In this document: positions 2,274 through 64,000 of the stretch, piece by piece
How the letters are laid out: each line of letters opens with the position of its first letter
Position numbering within the stretch: the first letter of the stretch is position 1
Position numbers and translations under genes: made by a program
The notes under the pieces: generated by a model
Seen by the model: the letters and a program-made list of their open reading frames with translations, nothing else
Databases searched by the model: none
Told to the model about the DNA's origin: nothing
Assembly: GCA_947499615.1 (NCBI GenBank)
Contig: CANMOP010000010.1
Coordinates: 2,306 to 66,305 of the forward strand
From: Chloroflexota bacterium
Lineage (GTDB): Bacteria > Chloroflexota > Dehalococcoidia > UBA2979
Reading direction: 5' to 3'
DNA length: 64,000 nucleotides

Positions 2274-3245
2274 ATGCGCGGTTTCCTGAACATCGACAAG
2301 CCGATCGGCATCACATCGTTCGATGTGGTACGCGCGATCCGGCGCGCCAGCGGGGTAAAACGCGTCGGACACGCTGGTACGCTCGACCCGCTCGCCACCG
2401 GCGTGCTGCCCGTCGCCATCGGCGATGCCACGCGGCTCATCGATGGGCTGGTCGACGCCCGCAAGGCCTACCGCGCCGAGGTGACACTGGGCGTGGAGAC
2501 CGCGACCGACGACGCAGAGGCCGAACACGAGGCCACCTCGCGCGCGCCGGATGAAACCGTCGCTGCCCTAACCACCGCAGCGATCGAGCTCGCGCTCGCG
2601 ACGTTCGTCGGCGAGTCGATGCAGTTGCCGCCTGCGTTTAGCGCCATCAAGCAGGCCGGCCAGCCTGCCTACCGCGCCGCGCGCCGCGGCGAGCCACTGG
2701 AGCTTGCGCCGCGCCCGGTCGTCGCGCACGCGCTGCGCCTCATCAAGCGGCGTGGCCCGGTGCTGGTGATCGAGGTGGAATGTGGCAAGGGGTACTACGT
2801 GCGCGCCCTCGCACGCGACCTCGGGCGGGCGCTCGGAGTCGGCGGGCACGTCAGCGCGCTCCGTCGCACGCGTGTCGGCCCGTTCGAGGCGGCACAGGCC
2901 GTCCCCCTCGACGTCGCAACCGAAGTGCTGGCAGCGAGCCGCGCGGGGCTACCCGCTGCGCTGGATGTCCTGCTGCACGCGCCGGACGCGGTGCTCGTCG
3001 GCTGGCCGGTGATCATCCTCGACGACGTCGCACTCTCCGACGTCCAGATGGGGCGTGTGGTGCACCCGGAACCGCGACCGCTGTCGGGCGTGGACACGCC
3101 GCCAGCAGTGGGCCTGAAGGCCCGCGCGTACGCCGCCGACGGCGCACTGGCCGCGATCGCGGAGCACCAGGGGGACTGGGACTGGCACCCCGTGCGCGTG
3201 TTCGCACCCCTCGAGGCCTCGGCGTCAACCCCACCGGAGGTTTGA
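2274..3245 (+). CDS. truB: tRNA pseudouridine(55) synthase
   Basis: DKP, GHAGTLDPLATG, PPAFSAIK and CGKGYYVRAL motifs. Confidence 0.95.
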   Translation: MRGFLNIDKPIGITSFDVVRAIRRASGVKRVGHAGTLDPLATGVLPVAIGDATRLIDGLVDARKAYRAEVTLGVETATDDAEAEHEATSRAPDETVAALTTAAIELALATFVGESMQLPPAFSAIKQAGQPAYRAARRGEPLELAPRPVVAHALRLIKRRGPVLVIEVECGKGYYVRALARDLGRALGVGGHVSALRRTRVGPFEAAQAVPLDVATEVLAASRAGLPAALDVLLHAPDAVLVGWPVIILDDVALSDVQMGRVVHPEPRPLSGVDTPPAVGLKARAYAADGALAAIAEHQGDWDWHPVRVFAPLEASASTPPEV

Positions 3246-50917: not shown

Positions 50918-51403
50918 ATGACCGAGAAGACCGGAAACCCGAGCGGCGGCGAACCGATTGACCGCGCGGCGCGCGACGCCGTGCAGCTGGCGTACCAGGC
51001 GCTGGAGCGCTTCCCTGAGTTGGTACGTCGGCACAAGTTCATCGCCGGCGGGGCGGCGGTCTCTACATCGCTGATCGTACTGGCGGGCGTGGCAATCGCG
51101 AGGCGTATGCGCCTCGGCCAAACCTCGGACGAGGCGCTTGCCTCGGTCACCGAGGGCGAGATGCAGGGCCAGCGCATGGTCGTCGTCGAGCCGGACGAGG
51201 ACGCGGAGGCCGATCCGGACGCTCAGGCCGAGGACGCCACGACGACTCCGGCGGACTCCACGCTCCGCGAAGGCGAGGCTGTCGACACCGCAGAGCCCGC
51301 AGCGCCGGCCCCCGCCGCCGATGGCACCACGACTCGCCCCAACCTCACGACCGTCCCGAGCAACGGGAACGGCACTGGGCGGACGGAAGTCGGCCACCAC
51401 TAG
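50918..51403 (+). CDS. Hypothetical single-TM protein with acidic disordered tail
   Basis: AGGGAG RBS; hydrophobic segment FIAGG...GVAIA; low-complexity C-terminus. Confidence 0.65.
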   Translation: MTEKTGNPSGGEPIDRAARDAVQLAYQALERFPELVRRHKFIAGGAAVSTSLIVLAGVAIARRMRLGQTSDEALASVTEGEMQGQRMVVVEPDEDAEADPDAQAEDATTTPADSTLREGEAVDTAEPAAPAPAADGTTTRPNLTTVPSNGNGTGRTEVGHH

Positions 51404-51469: not shown

Positions 51470-52717
51470 ATGACCAGCAGCAGACACCCTGACGGCGTCG
51501 ACACACGCATCGTCCGCCGTATCTCACACTGCGATCTGGACACGTTCTTCGTCGCGGTCGAACGGTTGCGCGCTCCTGCACTCATCGGACAGCCGGTGCT
51601 CGTCGGCGGCACGGGGCCACGCTCGGTGGTCGCAACTGCCTCGTACGAGGCACGAGTGTTCGGCTGCCACTCGGCACAGCCGATGTCGCAAGCGCTGCGA
51701 CTGTGCCCGCAGGCAATCGTTGTCGCGCCGGACTTCGGGCGCTATCGAGCGGCGTCGGCACAGTTCCACGCCGTGCTACAGGACTGCTCCCCGCTCGTAG
51801 AGTCCGCCGGCCTCGACGAGGCATACGTCGACCTCACGGGGATCGGCGAGGGCGTAGGCGCGGCACACCGCGTCGCCACCTCGATCCGCGAGCGCGTGCG
51901 CGCCGAGGTGGGCCTCGCGGTCTCGGTCGGGATCGCGGACGGCCGCACCACGGCGAAGGTGGCATCCGATCGCGCGAAGCCGGACGGGCTGCTGGAGCTA
52001 CCACCCGGCGGCGATGCTGCGTTCCTCGCCCCGCTGCCGCTGCGCGAGCTGCCGATGGTGGGGCCTCGCCTCGCGGAGCAGCTGCGCGCCGCAGGGGTGC
52101 GCACGATCGGTCAGGCAGCGGCACTCGACCCGGCGTGGCTCAACGCGCGCTTCGGCAGCGCAGGCCTGCAGTTGAGCGAACGTGCGCGAGGAATCGACGC
52201 CACACTGGTGCGGGCACTGCCGCGCGCGCCAGTCTCGGTCTCGCGCGAGGTGACATTCGAGACGGACGTGACGGATCGCGACGCGCTGCGCCGGGTGCTG
52301 CGATCGCAGGCGGAGCAAGTGGGCGCGGATCTGCGGCGGGCCGGCCGCCGAGCGCGCACAGTCACGCTGAAACTGCGGTGGAGCGATTTCACGACGGTCA
52401 CTCGATCGCACACCCTCGACCGGCCCGCACAGTCCAACGCGCAGTTGGCCGCCGCGGGCAACGCCCTGCTGGATGCCGTGCTAGGGGAGGCCGGACGGCG
52501 GCCGGTGCGCCTCATCGGCGTGGGCGCTACCAACCTCGTCGGCGACGAGGTGCAACTGCGACTGGACGACCCGCAGATGGGCCTCGGCGAGCCGCAACCA
52601 CGCGAGGAGCGACTGGATCACGTGGTGGACGCGATCCGGGATCGCTTCGGTCCGGGCGCGGTGCGGCGCGGGCCGAACTCGTCCGGGCGTGGCGAACGGC
52701 GCCCTGATCGAGGCTAG
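51470..52717 (+). CDS. dinB: DNA polymerase IV
   Basis: HCDLDTFF, SYEAR, GLDEAY and AKVAS..KPDG motifs; little-finger domain. Confidence 0.94.
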   Translation: MTSSRHPDGVDTRIVRRISHCDLDTFFVAVERLRAPALIGQPVLVGGTGPRSVVATASYEARVFGCHSAQPMSQALRLCPQAIVVAPDFGRYRAASAQFHAVLQDCSPLVESAGLDEAYVDLTGIGEGVGAAHRVATSIRERVRAEVGLAVSVGIADGRTTAKVASDRAKPDGLLELPPGGDAAFLAPLPLRELPMVGPRLAEQLRAAGVRTIGQAAALDPAWLNARFGSAGLQLSERARGIDATLVRALPRAPVSVSREVTFETDVTDRDALRRVLRSQAEQVGADLRRAGRRARTVTLKLRWSDFTTVTRSHTLDRPAQSNAQLAAAGNALLDAVLGEAGRRPVRLIGVGATNLVGDEVQLRLDDPQMGLGEPQPREERLDHVVDAIRDRFGPGAVRRGPNSSGRGERRPDRG

Positions 52718-52815
52718 GCCGCGCAGAACATCACCGCGCGGGCCACATCTCGGGCACCGCCAACACGACCGGCAATGTCGCGTTGACCATCGGCCACGGA
52801 CTTCCGGGACTCTCG

Positions 52816-52846
52816 GGCAAGAATCTCACCAAATCTGCATGAACCT
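52816..52846. promoter_or_regulatory. Putative operator upstream of the AKR-ahbAB-chdC operon
   Basis: AATCT/AATCT/AACCT at 10-bp period (52822, 52832, 52842); AATCTCACCAAA recurs inverted at 55878-55889. Confidence 0.45.
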
Positions 52847-52917
52847 GCCATCTCCCCCCGTTGTCGCTGGGAGGTTTTGCACCGACGCTCTGGACGCGAA
52901 ACGAAAGGGCGGACGAC

Positions 52918-53931
52918 ATGCGATACCGGACTATCGCGGGCAGCGACGTACAGGTCTCCGAGGTCGGCTTCGGAGTCTGGACGATGGCCACCGGCTGGTG
53001 GGGCCAATACACCGATGAGCAGTCGACCACGCTGCTGCGGCAGTCCTTCGACCGCGGCATCACCTTCTTCGACACGGCTGACACGTACGGCAACGGGCGC
53101 GGCGAGACCGCCTTGGCGCTGGCCTTCCCCGGCGCCGACCGCCAGAAGATCGTGATCGGTACCAAGTTCGGCTACGACTGGAAGGCGGCGATGGGCGAGC
53201 GGCGCGAGGGCCATCGCGAGGCGCCACACCGCCTGGACATCCCCTTTCTGGAGCAGGCACTGGATGACTCGCTGGAGCGCCTGGGCACGGACTACATCGA
53301 CGTCTGGCAACTGCACAATGTGCGTGGCGACCACCTTCGCGAGGACGCGCTCTGGATGTTCCTGGACAAGGTGCGCGCCTCCGGCAAGGTACGCTCCATC
53401 GGCGTCGCGCTGGGCCCGGCGATCGGCTGGCTGGACGAGGGGCTGTACTCGCTGCGCGACCGACCGGTCGACACCGTGCAGATGATCTACAATGCGCTGG
53501 AACTCGATCCCGGCCGCGAACTCATCGCCGCCGCGCGGGAGACCGGTCGGTCGTTGCTGGTGCGGGTGCCGCACTCCTCGGGCATGCTCGAAGGCAAGTA
53601 CGACGCGAATACCACGTTCGACGCGAACGACCACCGCAGCCACCGCCCGAAAGCGTGGCTCACGAACGGGCTGCAGAAGATCCAACAGCTCGACTTCCTG
53701 ACCAACGGCACCGGACGCACGCTCGGCCAGGCGGCGCTACGCTACGTGCTGCACGATCCCACCGTCGTCAGCGCGCTCCCCAACATCTACAACCTCGATC
53801 AGGTGGACGAGTTCTGCGGCGCCTCGGACGTCGCGGACATCACCACCGACGAGGCGGCGCGCATCCAGGCGCTGTTCGAGACAAACTACGGGCTCCCCCG
53901 CGAAGTAGAACAGGCGGTAGCACGGCCATGA
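52918..53931 (+). CDS. Aldo/keto reductase
   Basis: VSEVGFG, FDTADTYG, TKFG, SLERLGTDYID..QLH and QMIYN; D/Y/K/H tetrad intact. Confidence 0.92.
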   Translation: MRYRTIAGSDVQVSEVGFGVWTMATGWWGQYTDEQSTTLLRQSFDRGITFFDTADTYGNGRGETALALAFPGADRQKIVIGTKFGYDWKAAMGERREGHREAPHRLDIPFLEQALDDSLERLGTDYIDVWQLHNVRGDHLREDALWMFLDKVRASGKVRSIGVALGPAIGWLDEGLYSLRDRPVDTVQMIYNALELDPGRELIAAARETGRSLLVRVPHSSGMLEGKYDANTTFDANDHRSHRPKAWLTNGLQKIQQLDFLTNGTGRTLGQAALRYVLHDPTVVSALPNIYNLDQVDEFCGASDVADITTDEAARIQALFETNYGLPREVEQAVARP

Positions 53932-55010
53932 CAACCACGGCGCCTCGACCAAACATGACACTGGATGAAATGACCTCGCTCCTCCTGAACGAACTGCAGG
54001 ATCGCTACCCGTTGGTGGAGCGCCCCTACGCCGAGGTCGGCGCTCGCCTCGGCATTTCGGAAGAGGAGACGCTGCGCCGGCTCAAGGAGGCACGAACGGC
54101 CGGCGTAATCCGCCAGGTCTGCGCCATCTACGACACCAAGGCACTGGGCTACTCCTCCGCGCTGGTCGCGATGCACGTGGAGCCGGAGTTGTTGGCCCGC
54201 GCGGTCGCAGTGGTGAACGCGCATCCCGGCGTCTCCCACAACTACCAGCGCAACCATGATTTCAACGTGTGGTTCACCGTCGCGATGCCGCCCGGCAACG
54301 ACCTTGACCACGTGATTCAGCGCATCCACGAACTCTCCGGCGCGACATCTACACGCCCGATGCCGACGCTGCGGCTCTTCAAGATCGGCGTCACTCTCGA
54401 TATGTCCGGCGAGCGTGACCTCGCTGCGCGCGGTGCCCCGGAGTACTCCGAGGAGCGTCGCGAAGAGGCAGCCCTGCATCCCATCACGGAAGCGGACATC
54501 GCCTACATCCGCGCCACGCAGGGTGACCTCCCAGACGTCGCCACCCCATTCGAGGCTGTAGCGAAGAAGCTCGGCATGACGGTGGAGCAGGTGCTCGCGC
54601 ACGGGCGCCAGATGGTCGATCACGGCCACCTGCGCCGCTTTGCGACGATCCTTAACCACCGGGCCGCGGGATTCCGCGCCAACGGCATGGCCGTGTGGAA
54701 TGTGCCGCAGGATCGCATTCTTGAGTTCGGCACGTTCGTCGCGGGCTATCGCAACGTCTCGCACTGCTACCAGCGCCCGACGTACGAGGACTGGCCGTAC
54801 AACGTCTTCTCGATGATCCACGCGCCGCGCGCGGAAGGCGTCGAGGCAGTGGCGGACGCGATCGCTGCGGAGACGGGGGTCACCGACCACCGCATGCTGT
54901 ACTCCAGCACCGAATTTAAGAAGATTCGGCTGCCGTACTACACGCCCGAGTACGACGAGTGGGAAACTCGCTGCGCGGCGGCCGCCCGGGGCGACGAGGT
55001 GCGCGGGTGA
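53928..55010 (+). CDS. ahbAB: Fused siroheme decarboxylase AhbA-AhbB (NirDL/GH-like, Lrp/AsnC fold)
   Basis: Two Lrp-like halves with VSHNYQR and VSHCYQR (HxYxR) motifs; NGMAVW, WPYN.FSMIH and EFKK. Confidence 0.88.
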   Translation: MTTTAPRPNMTLDEMTSLLLNELQDRYPLVERPYAEVGARLGISEEETLRRLKEARTAGVIRQVCAIYDTKALGYSSALVAMHVEPELLARAVAVVNAHPGVSHNYQRNHDFNVWFTVAMPPGNDLDHVIQRIHELSGATSTRPMPTLRLFKIGVTLDMSGERDLAARGAPEYSEERREEAALHPITEADIAYIRATQGDLPDVATPFEAVAKKLGMTVEQVLAHGRQMVDHGHLRRFATILNHRAAGFRANGMAVWNVPQDRILEFGTFVAGYRNVSHCYQRPTYEDWPYNVFSMIHAPRAEGVEAVADAIAAETGVTDHRMLYSSTEFKKIRLPYYTPEYDEWETRCAAAARGDEVRG

Positions 55011-55795
55011 CATCCGACGCCGGAAGCGCCAGCACACCGCATTCGCCATACGCCCGCCCGGCGAACCTGCCGGAGCCGACGTCTCCGCACGGCAAACAGT
55101 TCGTGAAGTTCACGTTCTTTCGCGTGCGCGACGCGGTGCGTGCCGGTGACGCTGCGGCACGTGCCGAAGCCGCGCGCTGCCTCGCAGAGCTGCTGGAACG
55201 CTCCTCCCAACGCATGTTGACGCGCACCTACACCACGGTGGGCACGCGGCGCGATACCGATTTCATGGTCTGGCAGGTCGCCGACGATCTGCAGGAGATC
55301 ATGGACTGGCAGTCCGCACTGCTCGCCTCCCCGCTGGCGTCAGCGCTGGAGCAGCCGCACTCCTTCTTGTCGATGACCATGCGGTCCATGTACGCCAACC
55401 CGCTGCACACCTCAGCACCCGGCGACCCCGGTCGGGAGCGGCTGCGCTCCGATGACAGCGGCGCGGCGTATCTCTTCGTGTACCCGATGGTGAAGACTCG
55501 CGAGTGGTACAAGCTCCCGCAGGATCGCCGGCAGGAGATCATGAACGAGCACATCGCGATCGGGCACGCGTACCACCGCATCCGAATCAACACGACGTAC
55601 TCCTACGGTCTCGACGACCAGGAGTTTGTCGTCGCGTTCGAGGGAGACTCGCCCGGCGAGTTCCTGGCGCTGGTGCGTGACCTGCGCGACTCCGCGTCGT
55701 CGTCGTACACCGAGCGGGACACGCCGATGTTCACCTGCCGTCGGATGGCACCGCAGGCACTGGCAGCCTATTGCGGGCTGCTGCCACGGGACTGA
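55007..55795 (+). CDS. Coproheme decarboxylase (ChdC/HemQ, chlorite dismutase family)
   Basis: YPMVK (ChdC Tyr/Lys motif), WY.LP...R..IM.EH and YS.GLDDQEF; Ile rather than Arg at the Cld distal position by eye alignment. Confidence 0.8.
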   Translation: MTSDAGSASTPHSPYARPANLPEPTSPHGKQFVKFTFFRVRDAVRAGDAAARAEAARCLAELLERSSQRMLTRTYTTVGTRRDTDFMVWQVADDLQEIMDWQSALLASPLASALEQPHSFLSMTMRSMYANPLHTSAPGDPGRERLRSDDSGAAYLFVYPMVKTREWYKLPQDRRQEIMNEHIAIGHAYHRIRINTTYSYGLDDQEFVVAFEGDSPGEFLALVRDLRDSASSSYTERDTPMFTCRRMAPQALAAYCGLLPRD

Positions 55796-55845
55796 GTCGA
55801 CGAGGCCTCCACGGAGCGGCGTCGCCACTTCCATGGCCGAGGATG

Positions 55846-55894
55846 TAAACTGCAGATCGCTCGAATCTGATCAGAACTTTGGTGAGATTTTGCC
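55846..55894. promoter_or_regulatory. Putative promoter/operator of the HTH regulator
   Basis: TAAACT -10 at 55846-55851; palindrome TCTGATCAGA at 55866-55875; inverted copy of the 52816-52833 motif over the RBS. Confidence 0.45.
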
Positions 55895-56537
55895 AGCACG
55901 CCAGACCAACGCCTCGCAGACTCCTGCCGTCACCCGTTGGGTGAACCTCGGCCGCGCCTGCGAGATCCTCGGCGTCAACGAATCGACAGTTCGGCGCTGG
56001 GCAGACTCCGGCGAGATCCGCTGCTTTCGCACGCCGGGCGGGCACCGGCGGTTCGCCGAGGGCGACCTGGTGGCGATGACCGAAGGCGGGCCAGGCGGGC
56101 CTCGATCGGAGACGGCGCTGGAAACGGCAGCGGTCTCTCGCATCCGCCGGCAGTTGCAGTCCGGCGGCAAAGGCGCGGCCTCGTGGTACCCCAGCATGGA
56201 GGAGGACGAGCGCGACGCGTTGCGTCCCCTCGGCCGGCGCCTAGTGGAGCTCGTCGGCGAGTACATCTCGCGGCGCGGTGGTCGGCGCGCGCTGGTGGAA
56301 GCCGAGGTCGACGAGATCGGCCAGCGCTACGGCCAGATCCTCCACCAGCGCGGCACGCCGTTGTTGCGCGCGGTGGAGGCCTTCACGTTCTTCCGTCGCT
56401 CGTTGGACGAGACAGCGAAGCAACTCGCCGAGCGCACCAGCATGTCCGCCGAGGAAGCGGCCCGAGCGCGCGCGGAGATCGGCGGGCTCGCCGACCGCGT
56501 GCTGCTGGGCGTGACCGCCGCGTACGACGTCGAGTAA
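55890..56537 (+). CDS. BldC/excisionase-like HTH regulator with helical (globin/RsbRD_N-like) C-terminal domain
   Basis: LG.ACE.LGV..STVRRWAD.G.I...RTPGGHRRF signature; all-helical C-terminus; start uncertain (TTG 55890 or ATG 55833). Confidence 0.8.
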   Translation: MPARQTNASQTPAVTRWVNLGRACEILGVNESTVRRWADSGEIRCFRTPGGHRRFAEGDLVAMTEGGPGGPRSETALETAAVSRIRRQLQSGGKGAASWYPSMEEDERDALRPLGRRLVELVGEYISRRGGRRALVEAEVDEIGQRYGQILHQRGTPLLRAVEAFTFFRRSLDETAKQLAERTSMSAEEAARARAEIGGLADRVLLGVTAAYDVE

Positions 56538-56589
56538 GTCGGATAGTTCGAGACAGCACGGAAGTCTGGACGACAGGGACAGGGAGCCA

Positions 56590-57315
56590 ATGGGGTACTA
56601 CCCAATCTTCGTGGAGATGCGTGACCGACCGGTACTGCTCGTCGGCGGCGGACACGTCGCACTCGAGAAGATCGGCAAGTTGGTGGACGCCGGTGCCCGC
56701 GTCACCGTGGTTGCGCCGGAGCTGATTCCGGCGGTACAGGCATACATCGATGACGGCCGTGCCACGCTGCAGCAGCGCGTCTACGAGGACGGCGATGTGG
56801 ATGGCATGGACGTCGTGATGGTCGCCACCGACGACGGCGAGGTGAACGCCCGCGTTGCCGCCGATGCGCGCGCGCAGGACATCTGGGTCAACGCCGCCGA
56901 CGACGCTGCGAACTGCGACTTCATCCTGCCTTCGCTCGCACAGCGCGGCACGATTGCGATCGCGACCTCCACGGGCGGCGCCAGTCCAGCGCTGGCACGC
57001 TGGCTGCGCGAGCGAATGGAAGAGTTCCTGAGCGACGACGTGGTCGCGCTCGGCGACCTTCTGAAAGAGCTGCGCGTGCTCGTCCGACAGCGAGATCGCC
57101 AGTGCGCCGCCGGCTGCAGTTTGGTACGCACGCCCCCGCCGCTACTGTGCACGAGTTGCCCAAACCGCATCCCCGCCGACCGTTGGCAGACGGCCATCGA
57201 TGATGAGTTGCTGGCGCTGCTGCGCGCCGGACGCATCACAGACGCGAAGGCCCGGATGAGCACCGCGCTCGGACTCGACGCGCCGTTGATCGCCTCGCCC
57301 GGACGAGACGGCTAG
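56590..57315 (+). CDS. Precorrin-2 dehydrogenase/sirohydrochlorin ferrochelatase (CysG-N/Met8/SirC-like)
   Basis: YYPIF, VGGGHVA..K, VNAADD..CDF and STGGASP motifs. Confidence 0.9.
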   Translation: MGYYPIFVEMRDRPVLLVGGGHVALEKIGKLVDAGARVTVVAPELIPAVQAYIDDGRATLQQRVYEDGDVDGMDVVMVATDDGEVNARVAADARAQDIWVNAADDAANCDFILPSLAQRGTIAIATSTGGASPALARWLRERMEEFLSDDVVALGDLLKELRVLVRQRDRQCAAGCSLVRTPPPLLCTSCPNRIPADRWQTAIDDELLALLRAGRITDAKARMSTALGLDAPLIASPGRDG

Positions 57316-57319
57316 CGCA

Positions 57320-58630
57320 ATGCTGACCTACGTAGGCCTCAGCCATCACACAGCGCCGATCGAGGTGCGCGAGCAGCTGGCTATCGCCGCGGATGATCTG
57401 CCGGGCGTGCTTGCGGAGCTGGGCCGACGCTTTGGCGCGGGCACCATCGTCAACACATGCAACCGCATCGAGGTGTACCTGCCGGGCACACACGAGCGCG
57501 CGGACGTACTCGAGTTCCTCTCGCAGACGACCGGCGCGGATCGAGATCTGGCGGACCGGCATTTCGCAGCAGCGCACCATCTGGATGCCGTGCGCCACCT
57601 CTACACCGTCGCGGCCGGCCTCGACTCGATGGTGCTCGGCGAACACGAAGTGCTCGGCCAGGTTCGGGCCGCCTTCTCCGCGGCGACCGCCGCTCGTACC
57701 GATGACGCGATGCTCTCGCGGCTGTTTCACAGCGCGATCCGCGTCGGCCGACGCGCGCGAGCCGAGACCGCGATCAGCCACCACGCGGTCTCCGTCTCCT
57801 CAATCGCCGTGCAGCAGGCACGCGCCCTCTATCCGGAGACGGAACACGCCACCGTGCTGGTGATTGGTGCCGGCGAGGCAGGACGATTGGCCGCTGCGGC
57901 ATTGATTGACCGTGGGGTCGGCCAAGTGCTGGTCGTGAACCGCACCGCCGAACGTGGACAGGCGCTGGCTGCGGAGCTCGGCGGCCGTGCCCTCCGCCTC
58001 GACCAGTTGGAGGACGCGATCGCGTCGGCCGACGTGGTCATCGCCGCCGCGGATACGCCGGAGCCGCTGGTGACCGTGCCCCTCGTACACGCCGCGATGG
58101 CGCGACGCCCCGGGCGGCCCCTGCTCGTGATCGACATCGGTATGCCGCGCGACTGCGACCCAGCGATCGGCGAGCTGCCGGACGTGACGCACTACGACCT
58201 GGACGATTTGCAGGCGATCGCCGCCGAGCACTTCGCCGCGCGTGCGGGCGAGGTGGACGCGGTGCGAGCCATCGTCGATCAGGAAGCCGATCGCTTCCTC
58301 ACCTGGTGGGAGCAGCTCCAGGTTGCCCCCACCATCACCGCGCTCACGGAACGTGCGGAGCGCGTACGTCAGGCGGAGCTCACTCGCACGCTGCGCCGCC
58401 TGGATGTCACCTCGGAGGAGCGTGTGCACCTGGACGCGCTCACCAAGGCGATCGTGAAGCAGTTGCTGCACGACCCGATCAGTAGTCTGCGCGAGTTCGG
58501 CAACCGCGAGGTCTTCGTCGATACAGCGCGTCGGCTGTTCCGGCTCGATGTCATCGAGGACGAAGACGACGGCAACCTCGATGCCGCCACGGCCGGGAAC
58601 TTCCGCGCCGATGATCCGTCCGGCGCATGA
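57320..58630 (+). CDS. hemA: Glutamyl-tRNA reductase
   Basis: HHTAP, TCNR.E, GLDSMVLGE..VLGQ, GAGE and DIGMPRD motifs. Confidence 0.95.
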   Translation: MLTYVGLSHHTAPIEVREQLAIAADDLPGVLAELGRRFGAGTIVNTCNRIEVYLPGTHERADVLEFLSQTTGADRDLADRHFAAAHHLDAVRHLYTVAAGLDSMVLGEHEVLGQVRAAFSAATAARTDDAMLSRLFHSAIRVGRRARAETAISHHAVSVSSIAVQQARALYPETEHATVLVIGAGEAGRLAAAALIDRGVGQVLVVNRTAERGQALAAELGGRALRLDQLEDAIASADVVIAAADTPEPLVTVPLVHAAMARRPGRPLLVIDIGMPRDCDPAIGELPDVTHYDLDDLQAIAAEHFAARAGEVDAVRAIVDQEADRFLTWWEQLQVAPTITALTERAERVRQAELTRTLRRLDVTSEERVHLDALTKAIVKQLLHDPISSLREFGNREVFVDTARRLFRLDVIEDEDDGNLDAATAGNFRADDPSGA

Positions 58631-59559
58631 CAGCGTTACGAGCCCTTACTAGCCTGCGCGTCGCCAGCCGTGGCTCTGCGCTCGCGCTTGCGCAGGCTGC
58701 GCTGGCGGTACAGGCACTGCAGCAGCAGGATCCCGCGCTGCGGATCAACTATGTCCAAATCACCACCGAGGGTGATGTCGACCGCTCCACACCGTTAAGC
58801 ATACTGGGCGGCCGCGGTGTCTTCGTGCGTGGAGTGGAGGATGCGCTGTTGGAGGGTCGTGCGGACATCGCCGTGCACTCCATGAAGGACGTACCCACCG
58901 AACTCGCGCCCGGCCTCACCATCGGCGCGGTGTTGCCTCGAGGCGACGCGCGCGACGTGCTGGTGGCATCCGGCGGGCGACGGCTCGCCGATCTGCCCGC
59001 GGGTGCACGCGTCGGCACCTCATCGCAACGCCGTGTGGCGATGCTGGCGCTGATGCGTCCGGACATCGAGGCGGTCGAGGTGCGCGGGAACGTCGACACA
59101 CGCATTCGCAAGGTCATGGACGGCGAATTGGACGGCGTACTGCTCGCGGCGGCAGGCCTCGAACGGCTCGGACGGCTTGCCGAGGCGACGCAACTGTTCG
59201 ATGCGCAGGAGTTCGTCCCCGCACCGGCGCAGGGCATCGTCGCAATCGAATGCCGCGAGGATGACGAGGCCGTGCTGGCGTTGCTGGCGACCATCGACGA
59301 CGCGCGCACGCGCACCGCAGCGACCGCAGAGCGCGCGTTCCTGCGCGCCCTCGGCTCCGGATGCACGCTGCCTGTTGGCGCCTACGCACGCCTCGATCGC
59401 GACCTCGTCGTGCTGCGCGCGATGATCCAGGACGAGGCCGTAGGACACCCGATCTTCGGCGACGGCACCGGCGCGTCCGGTGGCGCGGATGCCCTCGGTG
59501 CCGGCATGGCCGAACGGCTGACGATGTTGATCGACCGCATCAAGGCGCCGCAGCCGTGA
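58627..59559 (+). CDS. hemC: Hydroxymethylbilane synthase
   Basis: SRGSALA..Q, AVHSMKD, GTSS.RR, RGNVDTR and GCTLP motifs. Confidence 0.96.
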   Translation: MTALRALTSLRVASRGSALALAQAALAVQALQQQDPALRINYVQITTEGDVDRSTPLSILGGRGVFVRGVEDALLEGRADIAVHSMKDVPTELAPGLTIGAVLPRGDARDVLVASGGRRLADLPAGARVGTSSQRRVAMLALMRPDIEAVEVRGNVDTRIRKVMDGELDGVLLAAAGLERLGRLAEATQLFDAQEFVPAPAQGIVAIECREDDEAVLALLATIDDARTRTAATAERAFLRALGSGCTLPVGAYARLDRDLVVLRAMIQDEAVGHPIFGDGTGASGGADALGAGMAERLTMLIDRIKAPQP

Positions 59560-61112
59560 GCACCACTGCCAAAGCAGGCGCCGGCGACGGACACGTCTGG
59601 CTGGTGGGCGGTGGCCCCGGGGATCCTGGCTACATCACCGTTGCAGGCCTCGCGGCGCTGCGGCGCGCAGACGTCGTGCTGTACGACCGCCTCTCGCCGC
59701 CCGAGCTGCTGGACGAGTGCCCTCCGGAAGCAGTGCGCATCGATGTCGGCAAGGCCGTCGGTCGGCAGGCGATGACACAGGACCAAATCAACGCGGCGCT
59801 CGTCGAACACGGACGCGCGGGCAAGCGAGTGGTGCGTCTCAAGGGCGGCGACCCGTTCGTCTTCGGGCGCGGCGGCGAGGAAGCCGAGGCGCTGATCGAA
59901 GCCGGTATCGCGGTGACGGAGATACCTGGCATCACCTCGGCGATTGGTGGACTTGCCGCGGCCGGCATCCCGATCACGCATCGTGGCATCGCCGCCTCGT
60001 TCGCCGTGGTCACGGGCCACGAGGCGCCCACGCGCAGCGAACAGGCGACCGACTGGCAGCACCTCGCCACCGCCGTGGACACGCTGGTCGTGCTCATGGG
60101 CGTGGGCAACCTCGACGCGATTGCCGCCGCTCTGATCGAGGGTGGCCGCGCACGATCGACGCCATGCGCGCTCGTGCACGCCGCGACCACTCCGCAACAG
60201 CGGGTGGTCGCGGCGACGCTCGAACACATCGCGCAGGCCGCGCGCGACGAGGGCGTGGAGGCGCCAGCCCTCTTTGTGGTGGGCGAGGTGGTACGACTGC
60301 GCTCACGACTCGCGGCGGCCGGTCGGGGCACGCTCGCCGGGAAGCGCGTGCTCATCACCCGCACCCGCCAGCAGGCGTCGAGTCTCGCCGAGGCGTTGCG
60401 CAGCGAGAGCGCGCTGCCGGTGCTGCTCCCCGCAATCGAGATACTGCGTCGCGCCGACCCCTCGGCCGTGGACGCAGCCGTCCAGGCGCTGCGCTCGGGA
60501 GCGTACGGCTGGGTCGTCTTCACCTCGGAGAACGCTGTCGAGGTGACGTTCGAACTGCTGCGCGATCGCGACGCCGATGCACGACTGTTCGCGGGAGCGC
60601 GCCTGTGCGCGATCGGCCCCGCGACCGCCGACGCGCTGCTCGCCCGCGGGCTGCGCGCGGACCTCGTGCCTGCCGAAGCGACCGGCGAGGGCGCGCTCGC
60701 GGCGCTGCTCGCCGCCGGCGCCGGCGGAACGCAAGTGCTGCTGCCGCGTGCGGAGGGTGCGCGCATGGTGCTGCCCGATGGACTGCGAGCGGCCGGTTCG
60801 ACCGTCGACGAATTGACACTCTACCTCGCGGCGCCGCCAGCGAGCCCGCCGGAAGGTGCGCTCGACCGCATCCGCCGCGGCGAGATCGATATCGTGACGT
60901 TCACCTCATCCTCCACGGTGCGCAACCTGGTCGCGGTGCTCGGGCGGGACATCGAGGCGCTGCGCGGCGCACTGATCGCGTGCATCGGCCCCTCCACCGC
61001 CGACGCTGCCCGCGAGGCCGGATTCGTGCCCGACGTGGTGGCGGCTGAGTACACGATCGCGGGCCTCGTCGCTGCCCTGCGCGCGGCAGTGAATATGCGG
61101 GAGCAAGCATGA
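59556..61112 (+). CDS. cobA: Fused uroporphyrinogen-III C-methyltransferase/uroporphyrinogen-III synthase (CobA-HemD)
   Basis: [24 protein letters not shown] and PGITS; HemD half VLITR, FTSENAV, AIGPAT and FTSSSTV. Confidence 0.93.
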
Positions 61113-62101
61113 CCACACGCACCATACCCACCGAGTTCGCACGCACGCGCCGCACACGCGGGAGCGCCGCAATGCGCGCGTTGGTGCGGGAAACGCGCCT
61201 CGACCCCGCGCAGTTCATCTACCCGCTGTTCGTGACACACGGCCGCGGGGTGCGCGAGCCGATCTCCTCGATGCCGGGGCAGGCGCGGATCTCGGTGGAT
61301 CTGCTGGCCGCCGAGGCCCGCGAGTTGCGCAGCCTCGGCATTCGCGCGGTGTTGCTGTTCGGTATCCCGGAGGCGAAGGACGCCGTTGGGAGCGAGGGAT
61401 ACGCCGTGGACGGCATCGTGCAGCAGGCCACGCGCGCGCTGAAGGACGCCGATCCGGAGCTGCTGGTCGTCGGCGACGTCTGCCTCTGCGAGTACACAGA
61501 CCACGGCCACTGCGGGCTGCTCACGCCGCGCGGCGAGGTCGAAAACGACGCCTCGCTAGAGTTGTTGGCGCGCGCGGCGGTCTCGCTGGCGGACGCGGGT
61601 GCGGACCTCATCGCGCCGTCGGACATGATGGACGGGCGCGTGGGCGCAATCCGGCAGGCGCTGGACGACGCGGGCCACCTCGCGCTGCCGATCATGGCGT
61701 ACAGCGCGAAGTACGCCTCCGCGTTCTACGGCCCGTTCCGCGAGGCCGCGGACTCCACACCGGCGTTCGGCGACCGCCGCGGCTACCAGATGGACCCCGC
61801 GAACAGCCGCGAGGCGCTGCGCGAGGTGGCTGCGGACATCGCGGAGCAGGCAGACATCGTCATGGTGAAGCCGGCGCTCGCGTACCTCGATGTCATTCGT
61901 GCCGTGCGAGAGGCGACCACGCTGCCGGTGGCGGCCTACAACGTCTCCGGCGAGTATGCGATGGTGAAGGCGGCAGCCGCGCAGGGCTGGCTGGACGAGC
62001 GAGCGATCGTGCTGGAGACGCTGACCTCCATCCGGCGCGCGGGCGCGGACATCGTGATCACGTACCACGCCAAGGAGGCAGCGCGCTGGCTGAGCGAGTG
62101 A
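61109..62101 (+). CDS. hemB: Porphobilinogen synthase (Zn-type)
   Basis: [27 protein letters not shown] and MVKP motifs. Confidence 0.97.
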
Positions 62102-62937
62102 CGGCGGAAGGCTCGAGCATGGAGGCATCTGCAGCTCCGCTGTCTGCATGCGCCACGTTCGACCCCTCAGCGATCCGCGCCGTGGCGTTCGATGCGTACG
62201 GGACACTGTTCTCATGGGACTTCCAGGCCGCGATCAAAGATGTGCTCGACCAGCAGGGGTTGCCCGGCGACCACGAGGAGATCGCGAAGACCTTCCAGCA
62301 GGAAGCGTTTCGCAAGGTCAGCATCTGGGCGCCCGACCATGCCGTCGAGGATGGCAAACTCGACCGCCAGAAGATGCTCGATGTTCCCGCGCGCGAGTGG
62401 GTCACGACCTGGGAGATGTGGCGTCGACAGTTCGTATACACGTTCGAGAAGTACGAGTTGCGCGGCGACGCCGAGGCTGGCGCCAGCCACCTGCGTACGG
62501 TGTTGAGCCACGCCCCCGCCTACCCGGACGCCCACGAGACGATTGAGCGCCTCGCACGGCACGGTCTGCTGCTGGGCCTGATGTCGAACGCCGACGAGGA
62601 TTTCTTGCAGAGCGCCGTGTCGTTCAACCGGCTGCGCTTCTCCGTGATCCAGTCATCGGAGTCGCTGCGCATGTACAAGCCAGCGCGCACCGCATTCCTC
62701 GCGCTCTGCCATCGCCTCGGTTACGTACCGAGCGAGGTGCTGTACGTCGGAGACTCCGCCGCGACCGACGTAGTCGGCTCAATGCACGCGGGCATGCGGG
62801 CCGCGTGGATCAAGCGCCCCGAGGAGCAGACACCACCGGCACCGCTCGCACCCGGCGACCCGCCGCGTGAAGACCCGCCAACACCGGACATCGAAGTTGC
62901 ATCTCTCGCCGAGATCGCGGAGGCATTCGGAGCATGA
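62098..62937 (+). CDS. HAD-superfamily hydrolase
   Basis: FDAYGTL, SNAD, YKP and YVGDS..DV.G motifs; start overlaps the hemB stop. Confidence 0.85.
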
Positions 62938-63016
62938 CCGGCGCGCTCGCCAGCGCAGCGACAGTAACCGCTCGCACTACACAAACAACCCGTGGACTGC
63001 AGGATTGGACGCCCGA

Positions 63017-64000
63017 ATGAACCGAGACCGCTCGCGCGACATCATGCAGCGCGCACGTACGTTGCTACCGGGCGGCGTCGACTCGCCCGTCCGCGCCTAT
63101 CGTGCCGTCGGCGGCGAACCCGTCGTGCTGGCGAAGGGCAGCGGCGCGATAGTCACCGACGTCGATGGTAACGAGTACATCGACTACGTCTGCTCCTTCG
63201 GCCCGTTGATCCTCGGGCACGCGCACCCACACGTCGTGCACGCGATCCGCGAGGCCGCGGGCCACGGCACATCGTTCGGTGCGCCCACGGAGGCCGAGGT
63301 CGAGCTCGCGGCACGCGTCATCGCAGCGGTGCCGTCGGTCGAGATGGTGCGCTTCGTCAACTCCGGCACGGAGGCGACGATGACCGCGCTGCGGTTGGCG
63401 CGCGCAGTCACCGGTCGCGACCTAGTGCTGAAGTTTGACGGTGGATACCACGGGCACGCAGACGGACTGCTCGCTTCGGCGGGCTCCGGTGTCGCGACGC
63501 TCGGGCTGCCGGACTCGCCCGGCGTCCCGGCGGCATTCGCCGCGCAAACGCTGGTCACGCCGTACAACGACCTTGCGGCCGCGCGCGTGGCGTTCGAGGC
63601 GCACCCCGGGCAGATCGCGTGCATCATCGTGGAGCCGGTAGCCGGGAACATGGGACTGGTGCGCCCGGGCGAGGGCTTCCTGCAGGGGTTGCGCGCGCTC
63701 TGCGACGAGTTCGGCGCGCTGCTGCTGTTCGACGAGGTAATCACCGGGTTCCGCTCCGGGCCGGGCGGCGCACAGCAACTGTTCGACGTTCGCCCGGACA
63801 TCACGGCGCTCGGCAAGGTGATCGGCGGCGGTCTACCCGTCGGCGCGTACGGCGCATCGCGAGCGATCATGGAGCGCATGGCGCCCGCGGGAGACGTGTA
63901 CCAGGCCGGCACGCTCTCCGGAAATCCGTTGGCGATGGCTGCGGGCATCGCAACACTCGACGCGATTGCGGCACACTCCGACCCGTACGGTCGCCTCGAT
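63017..64000 (+). CDS. hemL: Glutamate-1-semialdehyde 2,1-aminomutase (partial, runs off the window)
   Basis: Translated by eye: [38 protein letters not shown] and QAGTLSGNP; no stop before the window end. Confidence 0.96.

What the first reader, a model, noticed from the sequence alone, without database searches (positions are those of the whole stretch)
52918..55795. AKR-AhbAB-ChdC operon: candidate radical-SAM-free siroheme-to-heme pathway
Seen: three genes are chained by stop/start overlaps (ATGA at 53928, GTGA at 55007): an aldo/keto reductase, a fused AhbAB siroheme decarboxylase and a ChdC/HemQ. They sit upstream of sirC-like, hemA, hemC, cobA-hemD, hemB and hemL genes. Known: the Ahb route is siroheme -> AhbAB -> didecarboxysiroheme -> AhbC (radical SAM) -> coproheme -> AhbD (radical SAM), and ChdC performs the AhbD step oxidatively. 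The window covers every step from glutamyl-tRNA to heme b except AhbC, and has no hemE/hemY/hemH. Inference: the coupled AKR fills the missing slot and may perform or assist acetate removal, giving an O2-tolerant hybrid pathway.
Basis: partly seen in the sequence, partly recalled or inferred. Interest (0 to 1): 0.85.

Follow-up and report, generated by a model that had tools for sequence, protein, structure and literature searches.

The report
Heme operon lacking AhbC, with reductase
An aerobic Dehalococcoidia bacterium appears to make heme from siroheme without the only enzyme known for one step, and a conserved aldo/keto reductase sitting in the heme genes of several bacterial phyla is the best candidate for the missing function.

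Summary
AKR (52918-53931), fused AhbA-AhbB siroheme decarboxylase (53928-55010) and ChdC (55007-55795) overlap by ATGA and GTGA. They lie upstream of sirC, hemA, hemC, cobA-hemD, hemB and hemL.

The genome is 95% complete. No NirJ-type radical SAM (AhbC/AhbD), HemE, CgoX or ferrochelatase was found, but it has a heme-copper oxidase.

In 201 genomes of the class:
- The AKR ortholog is in 65 genomes. Of these, 64 have ChdC, none has a true HemE, and 59 have a siroheme-decarboxylase-type gene.
- Among decarboxylase-bearing genomes, the AKR is in 51 of 59 without AhbC and 8 of 52 with AhbC.
- Of 21 ChdC genomes without the AKR, 15 have HemE.

In the 80 best AKR loci from named genomes, 65 have ChdC, AhbAB or hem genes within 3 kb. 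These include 23 of 23 Rubrobacter-type loci. The hemB-AKR-hemL order occurs in Nitriliruptoria-type genomes.

The AKR is therefore very probably a component of an AhbC-less siroheme-to-heme route. That it removes the acetates itself is unproven:
- It co-occurs with AhbC in some genomes.
- AKR chemistry does not obviously cleave C-C bonds.
- ChdC remains a rival catalyst.

No description of this link was found in print.

The parts
52918..53931 (+). Aldo/keto reductase (337 aa) of a heme-cluster-associated subfamily. Its stop overlaps the ahbAB start (ATGA).
   Evidence: PF00248 at 167.8 bits. No NCBIfam equivalog reached its cut-off; the best was YdjG at 84.7 against 550. D52, Y57, K83 and H133 are invariant in 17 orthologs. 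Orthologs sit next to ChdC, AhbAB or hem genes in 65 of 80 loci.
53928..55010 (+). Fused AhbA-AhbB siroheme decarboxylase (360 aa). Its stop overlaps the chdC start (GTGA).
   Evidence: NF040708 at 246.2 bits (cut-off 140) and NF040707 at 241.7 bits (cut-off 125). PF17805 twice and PF22451 twice.
55007..55795 (+). ChdC/HemQ-type coproheme decarboxylase (262 aa from the GTG at 55007; alternative GTG at 55103).
   Evidence: PF06778 at 186 bits. HemQ_actino at 116.8 bits, below the cut-off of 235. The nearest solved proteins are coproheme decarboxylases 9mhq (E 2e-22) and 6xub.
55937..56537 (+). MerR/HTH_17-type DNA-binding protein with a C-terminal part of no known family. Probable regulator. 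The start is uncertain; the ORF is open from 55626.
   Evidence: PF12728, PF00376 and PF13411 at residues 109-153 of ORF 55626-56537. No NCBIfam match. Conserved in the same place in relatives.
56590..57315 (+). SirC / CysG N-terminal-like precorrin-2 dehydrogenase, possibly also a chelatase.
   Evidence: PF13241 and PF14824. TIGR01470 at 155.9 bits, cut-off 62.3.
57320..58630 (+). hemA, glutamyl-tRNA reductase
   Evidence: PF05201, PF01488 and PF00745.
58627..59559 (+). hemC, porphobilinogen deaminase
   Evidence: PF01379 and PF03900.
59361..61112 (+). cobA-hemD fusion (uroporphyrinogen-III C-methyltransferase plus uroporphyrinogen-III synthase). The true start is probably near the hemC stop, since the methylase domain begins at residue ~77 of this ORF.
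   Evidence: PF00590 at residues 79-290 and PF02602 at 341-571. TIGR01469 at 299 bits.
61109..62101 (+). hemB, porphobilinogen synthase
   Evidence: PF00490 at 494 bits.
62098..62937 (+). HAD-superfamily hydrolase between hemB and hemL. Role unknown; it may not belong to the pathway.
   Evidence: PF00702 and PF13419. TIGR01428 at 103.3 bits, below the cut-off of 125.4. Found next to hemB in 2 of the relatives' loci examined (L022, L027) and absent in G008 and G203.
62867..64000 (+). hemL, glutamate-1-semialdehyde aminomutase, cut by the window end.
   Evidence: PF00202 at 243.9 bits.

Best explanation
The locus encodes an oxygen-compatible, AhbC-less form of the siroheme-dependent heme pathway.

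Proposed route:
- hemA, hemL, hemB, hemC and cobA-hemD make precorrin-2.
- The SirC-like protein, with a CbiX-type chelatase encoded elsewhere or a bifunctional SirC, makes siroheme.
- The fused AhbAB decarboxylates siroheme to 12,18-didecarboxysiroheme.
- ChdC makes heme b from coproheme.

The step between the last two, removal of the C2 and C7 acetates, is done everywhere else by the radical SAM enzyme AhbC. Here it has no known enzyme.

The translationally coupled AKR is a dedicated NAD(P)(H)-dependent component of this route. It most likely acts on the isobacteriochlorin intermediate made by AhbAB, and is needed, alone or together with ChdC, to convert didecarboxysiroheme to coproheme.

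What is shown: gene identities, absence of AhbC, AhbD, HemE, CgoX and CpfC, and the AKR's conserved linkage and phyletic pattern.
What is inferred: that the AKR works at the deacetylation step, and how it does so.
For: Own genome (95% complete):
- No NirJ-like radical SAM among its 8 radical SAM genes.
- No HemE, no ferrochelatase, no CgoX over the cut-off.
- COX1 is present, so heme is needed.
- AhbC-like and AhbD-like genes were also not found in the single-contig relatives G006 and G008.

201 genomes of the class (counted):
- The AKR ortholog (E<=1e-70) is in 65.
- 64 of those 65 have ChdC; the exception is 63% complete.
- 0 of 65 have a true HemE (>330 bits).
- 59 of 65 have a PF17805 siroheme-decarboxylase-type gene. 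Five of the 6 exceptions are at most 83% complete.
- Among PF17805 genomes the AKR is in 51 of 59 without AhbC and 8 of 52 with AhbC.
- A profile search added G068 and G044, making 53 of 59.
- Of 21 ChdC genomes without the AKR, 15 have a true HemE, i.e. the ordinary coproporphyrin route.

Adjacency in the class:
- AKR directly upstream of ChdC in 26 genomes.
- AKR-AhbAB-ChdC in 8 genomes.
- AKR-AhbAB in 9 genomes.

Other lineages:
- 65 of the 80 best AKR loci have ChdC, an AhbAB-like gene or hem genes within 3 kb on the same strand.
- This holds for 23 of 23 Rubrobacter-type loci.
- hemB-AKR-hemL occurs in 6 actinomycetotal loci.
- In an Omnitrophica MAG the AKR ORF ends (3062) where the ahbAB ORF begins.

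16 AKR genomes from other lineages:
- true HemE in 0 of 16
- a two-domain PF17805 gene in 16 of 16
- ChdC in 14 of 16
- an AhbC-like gene in 5 of 16

Other points:
- In anaerobic relatives AhbC sits beside AhbAB. G109 carries both an AhbAB-AhbC pair and an AKR-ChdC pair.
- The residues I take to be the AKR catalytic tetrad are invariant.
Against: - AKR and AhbC coexist in 9 of 65 class genomes and 5 of 16 other genomes.
- Two of those other genomes (G219, G223) have AhbC- and AhbD-like genes and no ChdC. The AKR is therefore not simply a substitute for AhbC.
- Within siroheme-pathway genomes, AKR and ChdC have almost the same distribution. The pattern fits an AKR that serves ChdC, or aerobic life, equally well.
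- Known AKR chemistry is hydride transfer to carbonyls. Didecarboxysiroheme has no carbonyl other than carboxylates, and C-C cleavage at a quaternary carbon is not a known AKR reaction (general knowledge).
- The nearest solved relatives are ordinary small-substrate AKRs: YhdN/GSP69 and IolS.
- 15 of 80 AKR loci show no heme neighbour.
- Kin are not independent, so the counts overstate the support.
- Only synteny and a handful of families were tested. An unlinked, unrecognised enzyme could fill the gap.
Confidence: 0.45

Rival explanations
1. ChdC, or the AhbAB-type enzyme, performs the deacetylation. With didecarboxysiroheme bound, peroxide-driven radical chemistry at the substrate iron and the catalytic tyrosine abstracts the C3/C8 hydrogen and expels the neighbouring acetate. 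The AKR is then an accessory. It could keep the oxygen-labile isobacteriochlorin or its iron in the right state, repair an oxidised by-product, dispose of the released two-carbon fragment, or help supply the oxidant that CgoX supplies in the coproporphyrin route.
For: - AKR and ChdC are co-distributed: 64 of 65 class genomes and 14 of 16 others.
- The AKR is directly upstream of ChdC in 26 class genomes and 23 of 23 Rubrobacter-type loci.
- ChdC genomes that have HemE, and hence presumably CgoX, lack the AKR: 15 of 21 ChdC genomes without the AKR have HemE.
- ChdC acts on the propionates of rings A and B, next to the acetates to be removed, and works by radical chemistry (general knowledge). 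An AKR does not.
Against: - ChdCs of HemE-type genomes are interleaved with those of siroheme-type genomes. In a 66-row tree, 8 of 12 nest among them, so there is no sign of a specialised clade.
- The window's ChdC aligns over most of its length (residues 32-248 of 262) with solved actinobacterial coproheme decarboxylases.
- G219 and G223 keep the AKR without ChdC. In the Omnitrophica MAG the AKR ORF ends where ahbAB begins, not chdC.
- A mere by-product or maintenance enzyme would not be expected to be this tightly linked across phyla.
Confidence: 0.33
2. The AKR has a function unrelated to tetrapyrroles, such as reduction of a small aldehyde, and is only a conserved operon passenger. The AhbC step is then done by an unlinked, unrecognised enzyme. 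One candidate would be either of the two uncharacterised radical SAM proteins.
For: - The closest solved and curated relatives are general-purpose AKRs.
- 15 of 80 loci have no heme neighbour.
- The genome has two radical SAM proteins of unknown function, of the TIGR03960 and PA0069 families.
Against: - The phyletic pattern is very specific. No true HemE was found in any of 81 AKR genomes tested.
- A PF17805 gene is present in 59 of 65 plus 16 of 16 of them. That family matched only 3 of 14 control genomes, all archaea.
- Heme-gene adjacency recurs in different arrangements in several phyla. A passenger gene would not be expected to show that.
Confidence: 0.12
3. Nothing is missing. ahbC/ahbD lie in the unassembled 5% of the genome, or the organism takes up heme or coproheme.
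For: - The genome is a 57-contig assembly at 95% completeness.
- Some close relatives (G004, G005, G012) do carry AhbC-AhbD-like pairs.
Against: - AhbC was also not found in single-contig relatives that carry the AKR (G006, G008, G146, G075 and G039 among others).
- It was not found in 51 of 59 AhbC-negative decarboxylase-bearing genomes that carry the AKR.
- A full early pathway plus AhbAB and ChdC is kept in one conserved cluster.
Confidence: 0.04

Closest known systems
Canonical siroheme-dependent (Ahb) heme pathway of sulfate reducers and methanogens: AhbA/B, AhbC, AhbD
   Same: - Uses cobA, sirC and chelatase to make siroheme.
- Has an AhbA/AhbB-type siroheme decarboxylase, here fused and over the NCBIfam cut-offs.
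- Lacks HemE.
   Different: - No AhbC and no AhbD were found.
- ChdC is present instead of AhbD.
- An AKR is coupled to ahbAB.
- Reviews seen here name AhbC as the enzyme for didecarboxysiroheme to coproheme and describe no alternative. These were passages of PMC10114771, PMC7242693 and PMC13564367.
Haloarchaeal hybrid route (Haloferax volcanii): AhbA/B and AhbC, then AhbD anaerobically or ChdC aerobically
   Same: Siroheme branch combined with ChdC as the aerobic last step (passages of PMC8305020; abstract of PMC5746218).
   Different: Haloferax keeps AhbC (HVO_1121 in the table of PMC8305020). This genome and most AKR-bearing genomes do not. Whether haloarchaea have this AKR could not be tested here.
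Coproporphyrin-dependent (CPD) pathway of Actinomycetota and Bacillota: UroD, CgoX, CpfC, ChdC
   Same: ChdC is the last enzyme. The window's ChdC is nearest to solved actinobacterial coproheme decarboxylases.
   Different: UroD, CgoX and CpfC were not found. Class genomes with a true HemE and ChdC lack the AKR.
Archaea reported to have ahb-nirD/H but no ahb-nirJ1/J2: Sulfolobus acidocaldarius, Haloquadratum walsbyi, Nitrosopumilus maritimus (Storbeck et al. 2010, PMC3004389, section 3.6 and Table 1 passages)
   Same: The same gap: a siroheme decarboxylase without AhbC/AhbD. In my searches the S. acidocaldarius control genome matched PF17805 and PF06778 but not TIGR04546 at E<=1e-90.
   Different: Those are archaea. 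Whether they carry this AKR subfamily was not testable with the tools. The Atlas listed an archaeal AKR cluster (commonest Nitrososphaerota, phylum known for 1 member) among the three nearest. This is a lead only.
AKR11-type bacterial aldo/keto reductases: B. subtilis YhdN/GSP69 (1pz1) and IolS (1pyf)
   Same: Same fold family by sequence (E 8e-28 and 1e-25). The residues I take to be the Asp-Tyr-Lys-His tetrad are conserved.
   Different: - No curated equivalog cut-off is reached.
- The subfamily has its own invariant motif, RVPH[SA]SG[LM]L[ED], which served as a search pattern.
- It has further invariant Arg, His and Trp residues: R4, W27, R216, H219, H239, R243, W247.
- It has a heme-cluster context that the Bacillus enzymes are not known to have (recalled).

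Membership tests
Aldo/keto reductase superfamily (PF00248) | Full-length match to the (alpha/beta)8 AKR domain | tested here: met
   167.8 bits, profile positions 1-289 of 291.
Aldo/keto reductase superfamily (PF00248) | Catalytic tetrad Asp-Tyr-Lys-His | tested here: met
   D52, Y57, K83 and H133 are invariant in 17 orthologs of 43-65% identity. That these four are the tetrad rests on recalled AKR motifs and on the alignment to YhdN.
Named AKR equivalogs (YdjG, YghZ-type L-glyceraldehyde-3-P reductase, Tas, DkgA) | Score over the curated NCBIfam cut-off | tested here: not met
   The best was NF049922 at 84.7 bits against a cut-off of 550. All six hits were far below their cut-offs.
Siroheme decarboxylase AhbA/AhbB (NirD/L/G/H family) | Both halves over the curated cut-offs; paired HTH and AsnC-like domains | tested here: met
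   NF040708 at 246.2 bits (cut-off 140) and NF040707 at 241.7 bits (cut-off 125). PF17805 and PF22451 each twice.
Coproheme decarboxylase ChdC/HemQ | Chlorite-dismutase-fold domain | tested here: met
   PF06778 at 186 bits. The best solved matches are coproheme decarboxylases, ahead of chlorite dismutases.
Coproheme decarboxylase ChdC/HemQ | Score over the curated equivalog cut-off (HemQ_actino) | tested here: not met
   116.8 bits against a cut-off of 235.
Coproheme decarboxylase ChdC/HemQ | Catalytic Tyr, distal His (actinobacterial type) and proximal His | tested here: inconclusive
   In the alignment to 9mhq a His (query H134), the VYP tyrosine and the His of 'EH' are matched. Which residues are catalytic is recalled and was not given by any search.
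Canonical Ahb pathway | AhbC, the radical SAM didecarboxysiroheme deacetylase | tested here: not met
   With TIGR04546 only MoaA matched, at 44 bits. None of the 8 radical SAM proteins is NirJ-like. The genome is 95% complete.
Canonical Ahb pathway | AhbD, the radical SAM heme synthase | tested here: not met
   TIGR04545 matched only MoaA, at 54.8 bits against a cut-off of 500.
Coproporphyrin-dependent pathway | UroD (HemE), CgoX (HemY) and CpfC (HemH) | tested here: not met
   PF01208 gave no match. PF00762 gave no match. The best TIGR00562 hit was 51.7 bits against a cut-off of 97.85.
Haloarchaeal AhbABC + ChdC hybrid | AhbC retained beside ChdC | tested here: not met
   Nine of 65 AKR-bearing class genomes do have this combination.

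The most novel reading that the evidence does not exclude
This AKR subfamily is a new, radical-SAM-independent didecarboxysiroheme deacetylase. It would be the missing enzyme of an aerobic siroheme-dependent heme route that operates in many aerobic bacteria: Dehalococcoidia, Rubrobacteria, Nitriliruptoria, Thermoleophilia, Abditibacteriota and Eremiobacterota. It may also explain heme synthesis in aerobic archaea that have AhbAB but no AhbC/AhbD.
Probability: 0.3. Interest if true: 0.92.

Novelty: new variant of a known kind. Interest (0 to 1): 0.8.

Why it matters
Three routes to heme are recognised. In the siroheme route the acetate-removal step has a single known enzyme, the oxygen-sensitive radical SAM protein AhbC. 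AhbC itself has barely been studied (PMC10114771, passage).

It has been on record since 2010 that some aerobic archaea have AhbAB but no AhbC/AhbD (PMC3004389). The data here show that the same gap is common in aerobic bacteria of several phyla. They also single out one conserved, catalytically intact gene as the candidate.

The candidate occurs in cultured organisms such as Rubrobacter taiwanensis (L092). The question therefore becomes a bench experiment.

If the AKR or the AKR/ChdC pair does the step, three things follow:
- It is new tetrapyrrole chemistry.
- It gives an oxygen-tolerant module for engineered heme production.
- Heme-pathway annotation for many uncultured lineages, now scored as incomplete, would need correcting.

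Tried and rejected
- Complex prediction of AhbAB with the AKR, each given as an alignment of 13 rows. The verdict was 'no answer' (score 0.00, controls not run). This is no evidence either way.
- Strict AKR/AhbC exclusivity was rejected.
- 'AKR goes with AhbAB only' looked refuted at first. Twenty-nine of 65 AKR genomes lacked AhbAB at E<=1e-25 with the window protein. But 5 of 5 checked, and then 23 of 29, have a divergent two-domain PF17805 gene with about 25% identity.
- 'AKR is a general ChdC partner' was rejected. HemE-type ChdC genomes lack it.
- The HAD hydrolase as a conserved partner. It is not conserved in the hem cluster of G008 and G203. The HADs next to the AKR in three verrucomicrobial loci were not hit by the window's HAD. 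This was left as a note.
- Pfam of same-strand neighbours in the 15 loci without a heme neighbour. 41 of the 78 ORFs listed were scanned, and nothing recurred apart from the HADs.
- Promoter and terminator scan of 52500-56700: no more than the shuffles gave.
- Rfam and tRNA scans of the window: no matches.
- Literature searches:
  - 'aldo-keto reductase' with 'coproheme': 0 papers.
  - 'didecarboxysiroheme' from 2019 on: 15 papers, none on an AhbC-independent route, judged by titles and abstracts.
  - The searches also found none.
- The 2017 MMBR review of prokaryotic heme synthesis, requested under a PMC id recalled from memory, is not held under that id and was not seen. It may discuss such gaps. 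Supplements were not consulted.


Full report
**What is there**

- An aldo/keto reductase lies at 52918-53931 (PF00248, 167.8 bits).
- A fused AhbA-AhbB siroheme decarboxylase lies at 53928-55010. It scores 246 and 242 bits on NF040708 and NF040707, both over the curated cut-offs.
- A ChdC/HemQ-type protein lies at 55007-55795 (PF06778, 186 bits).

ATGA at 53928 and GTGA at 55007 join them stop-to-start.

Downstream come:
- a MerR/HTH_17 gene
- a sirC/cysG-N-like gene
- hemA
- hemC
- a cobA-hemD fusion
- hemB
- a HAD hydrolase
- hemL, cut by the window end

The window is contig C10 of a 1.96-Mb, 57-contig genome rated 95% complete and 2.9% contaminated. Names given to the closest AKR homologs place it in the Dehalococcoidia.

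**Is the AhbC step really unfilled?**

The genome has 8 radical SAM matches. By NCBIfam they are MoaA, MiaB, HemW, RimO, LipA, a TIGR03960-family protein, RlmN and a PA0069-family protein.
- The AhbC model TIGR04546 matched only MoaA, at 44 bits.
- The AhbD model matched only MoaA, at 55 bits.
- HemE gave no match.
- Ferrochelatase gave no match.
- The best CgoX-model hit was 51.7 bits against a cut-off of 97.85.
- A CbiX-type chelatase gene is present on contig C12.
- A heme-copper oxidase subunit I is present at 531 bits.

The organism therefore respires oxygen and needs heme. Absence in a 95% complete MAG is weak on its own. But AhbC-like and AhbD-like genes were also not found in the single-contig relatives G006 and G008, which carry the same cluster.

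**Conservation near home**

AKR orthologs with 50-75% identity were found in 13 of 20 relatives: 11 of 12 in the same family, plus G013 and G018. The clear gap from paralogs, at 34% identity or less, makes orthology easy to call.

In 9 of 9 loci fetched, the AKR is followed by AhbAB and ChdC. In G008 it is followed by ChdC and then a weak AhbAB-like gene.

Three of these relatives (G004, G005, G012) also have an AhbC-like gene of 514-542 bits with an AhbD-like neighbour.

**The class-wide pattern**

The same sample of 201 genomes was searched six times. Counts were checked by script.

| Query | Threshold | Genomes with a match |
|---|---|---|
| AKR protein | E<=1e-70 | 65 |
| Window AhbAB protein | E<=1e-25 | 86 |
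| ChdC (PF06778) | E<=1e-10 | 85 |
| AhbC-like (TIGR04546) | E<=1e-90 (384-636 bits, full length, all under the 650 cut-off) | 56 |
| HemE (PF01208) | E<=1e-40 | 36, of which 17 score over 330 bits |
| PF17805 | E<=1e-4 | 111 |

The PF01208 hits of 232 bits or less are a paralog class. G200 has both a 401-bit and a 227-bit copy.

Results for the 65 AKR genomes:
- 64 have ChdC. The exception, G080, is 63% complete.
- None has a true HemE.
- 59 have PF17805. The six exceptions are G038 at 95% completeness and five genomes at 83% or less.
- 9 have AhbC.

Among PF17805 genomes, the AKR is in 51 of 59 without AhbC and in 8 of 52 with AhbC.

A profile of 17 AKR orthologs found two of the eight 'missing' cases:
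- G068 scores 410 bits, directly upstream of its ChdC.
- G044 scores 270 bits.
- G166, which has HemE, has paralog-level hits only, and G057 has no match.

Of the 21 ChdC genomes without an AKR at the first threshold, 15 have a true HemE.

ChdC genomes therefore fall into two kinds:
- HemE-type genomes without the AKR.
- Siroheme-decarboxylase-type genomes with the AKR.

These genomes are related to one another, so the counts overstate independence. However, both states occur in many family codes.

**Divergent decarboxylases**

Twenty-nine AKR genomes lacked AhbAB by the window protein. All five that I checked have a two-domain PF17805 ORF.
- In G008 it follows ChdC and has 26% identity to the window's AhbAB.
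- It scores 71 and 53 bits on the AhbB and AhbA models, below their cut-offs.
- It carries the NirDL-like HTH.
- Class-wide, 23 of the 29 have such a gene.

**Gene order**

By the coordinates:
- The AKR lies directly upstream of ChdC on the same strand in 26 genomes. In one of these there is a 1.2-kb gap.
- AKR-AhbAB-ChdC occurs in 8 genomes.
- AKR-AhbAB with ChdC elsewhere occurs in 9 genomes, all of one family.

In anaerobic-type relatives AhbC sits beside AhbAB, for example in G033, G045, G081 and G109. G109 has both an AhbAB-AhbC pair and an AKR-ChdC pair.

**Beyond the class**

The best 80 loci were kept. By tblastn with the window's proteins, 65 of 80 have ChdC, an AhbAB-like gene or hem genes within 3 kb on the same strand.
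- All 23 loci titled Rubrobacter, Rubrobacteraceae or Rubrobacterales have AKR followed by ChdC. One of these is the cultured Rubrobacter taiwanensis (L092).
- Six loci have the order ...hemB-AKR-hemL. They are titled Nitriliruptorales, Egibacteraceae, Euzebyaceae or Actinomycetota.
- An Omnitrophica MAG (L104) has an AKR ORF that ends at 3062, where the ahbAB ORF begins.
- Fifteen loci showed no heme neighbour. They are titled Thermoleophilia, Gaiellales, Symbiobacterium, Abditibacteria, Verrucomicrobia, Eremiobacterota and others. Pfam on 41 of their 78 same-strand ORFs found nothing recurrent except HAD hydrolases in three verrucomicrobial loci.

For 16 of these genomes, chosen to span the lineages:
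- A true HemE was found in 0 of 16. One has a 210-bit hit.
- A two-domain PF17805 gene was found in 16 of 16.
- ChdC was found in 14 of 16.
- An AhbC-like gene of 347-489 bits was found in 5 of 16.
- The two genomes without ChdC (G219, G223) both have AhbC- and AhbD-like genes.

PF17805 matched only 3 of the 14 control genomes, all archaea. Its presence in every AKR genome tested is therefore telling.

**The proteins themselves**

AKR:
- D52, Y57, K83 and H133 are invariant in 17 orthologs of 43-65% identity. Their role as the AKR tetrad is recalled.
- Also invariant are W27-W28-G29, R216, H219, S221, D238-H239-R240, R243 and W247.
- No NCBIfam equivalog comes near its cut-off.
- The nearest solved proteins are B. 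subtilis YhdN/GSP69 and IolS.
- The enzyme thus looks like an active NAD(P)(H) oxidoreductase of a subfamily that has no curated model.

ChdC:
- It aligns over most of its length (residues 32-248 of 262) with solved actinobacterial coproheme decarboxylases.
- A 66-row tree was built after dropping 24 near-duplicate loci.
- In it, 8 of 12 ChdCs from HemE-type genomes nest among those of siroheme-type genomes. The other four form a distant clade.
- ChdC shows no sign of being a specialised clade in AhbC-less genomes.

**What it most likely is**

I hold with high confidence (about 0.85) that this is an AhbC-less siroheme-ChdC hybrid heme pathway. I hold with about 0.8 confidence that the AKR is a dedicated part of it.

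The reasons are that the AKR sits in the heme genes of several phyla in different arrangements, and that it is found only in genomes that lack HemE and have a siroheme decarboxylase.

Which reaction it performs is inference. The one step without an enzyme is the removal of the C2 and C7 acetates, and the AKR is the one conserved extra gene.

Against it:
- The AKR coexists with AhbC in 14 of the 81 AKR genomes tested.
- It persists in two genomes without ChdC.
- Hydride-transfer chemistry has no obvious grip on a substrate without a carbonyl.

A chemically easier alternative is that ChdC does it. ChdC already makes a radical next to the ring A and B propionates, so it could abstract the C3/C8 hydrogen and let the acetate leave. 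The AKR would then be an accessory. This reasoning rests on general knowledge and on no call.

My probabilities are:

| Explanation | Probability |
|---|---|
| AKR takes a direct part in the deacetylation | 0.45 |
| of which: AKR alone is the deacetylase | about 0.3 |
| ChdC or AhbAB does it and the AKR is an accessory | 0.33 |
| AKR is unrelated and an unlinked enzyme does it | 0.12 |
| Assembly gap or heme uptake | 0.04 |

**What is known**

- Reviews up to August 2026 name AhbC as the enzyme for this step and say the route occurs in sulfate reducers and archaea (passages of PMC13564367, PMC7242693 and PMC10114771).
- The AhbABC plus ChdC hybrid of Haloferax is known (abstract).
- Storbeck et al. 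2010 recorded that S. acidocaldarius, H. walsbyi and N. maritimus have ahb-nirD/H but no nirJ1/J2, and left their heme synthesis open.
- My searches found no paper linking an aldo/keto reductase to coproheme or describing an AhbC-independent route.
- The 2017 MMBR review was not found under the PMC id I recalled, and no supplements were seen. A mention there cannot be excluded.
- The ESM Atlas lists an archaeal AKR cluster among the three nearest (commonest Nitrososphaerota, phylum known for one member). This is an untested lead.

**Verdict**

This is a new variant of the siroheme-dependent pathway, with a concrete, testable candidate for a gap that has been on record since 2010.

Noticed in passing
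window 55626-56537 (probable gene from ~55937): A MerR/HTH_17-type gene with a ~150-residue C-terminal part of no known family sits between chdC and sirC. It is conserved in that place, or upstream of the AKR, in relatives (L022, L023, L037, L038, L043, L047, L053, L062). It is possibly a heme- or redox-responsive regulator of the cluster.
   Followed up: partly
window 62098-62937; L022, L027; L107-L109: A HAD-superfamily hydrolase lies between hemB and hemL. Its nearest model is haloacid dehalogenase type II (103 bits, below the cut-off of 125). A similar gene is next to hemB in G018 and G074. Unrelated HADs adjoin the AKR in three verrucomicrobial loci. In Nitriliruptoria-type loci the AKR itself occupies the hemB-hemL slot. 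This may be coincidence, or a link to the fate of the released two-carbon fragment.
   Followed up: partly
L019:10785-11933 (G008); also G203, G018, G146, G027, G212, G218-G220, G222: This is a divergent fused AhbA-AhbB-like family. It has about 25% identity to the window's AhbAB, scores below the NCBIfam cut-offs and gives about 35 bits per PF17805 domain. It replaces the canonical decarboxylase in many AKR genomes. Some genomes (G013, G083, G093, G109, G111, G144, G194, G214) have four PF17805 hits, i.e. two such genes.
   Followed up: partly
window 50918-51403: A 161-aa ORF after ribH has no Pfam or NCBIfam match. It is conserved at 47-67% identity in the same position in five related loci (L037, L038, L043, L044, L062).
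   Followed up: no
G200, G150, G041, G076, G099, G218: This is a second class of PF01208 (URO-D) proteins scoring 141-232 bits, distinct from true HemE. G200 has both kinds. They are probably methyltransferase-type paralogs and could be mistaken for HemE in pathway calls.
   Followed up: no
protein P0001: The closest database AKR (98% identical) is labelled 'Deltaproteobacteria bacterium' and sits on a 2.1-kb contig. All other named relatives are Dehalococcoidia or Chloroflexota. This is probably a binning or labelling error in the source.
   Followed up: no
(ESM Atlas): An archaeal AKR cluster of 50 members (commonest Nitrososphaerota, phylum known for one member) is among the three nearest clusters by features (score 0.98). 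Nitrosopumilus is one of the archaea reported to lack AhbC/AhbD.
   Followed up: no
window 59361-59559: The longest cobA-hemD ORF overlaps hemC by about 200 bases, and the methylase domain starts only at residue ~77. The real start is probably close to the hemC stop.
   Followed up: no
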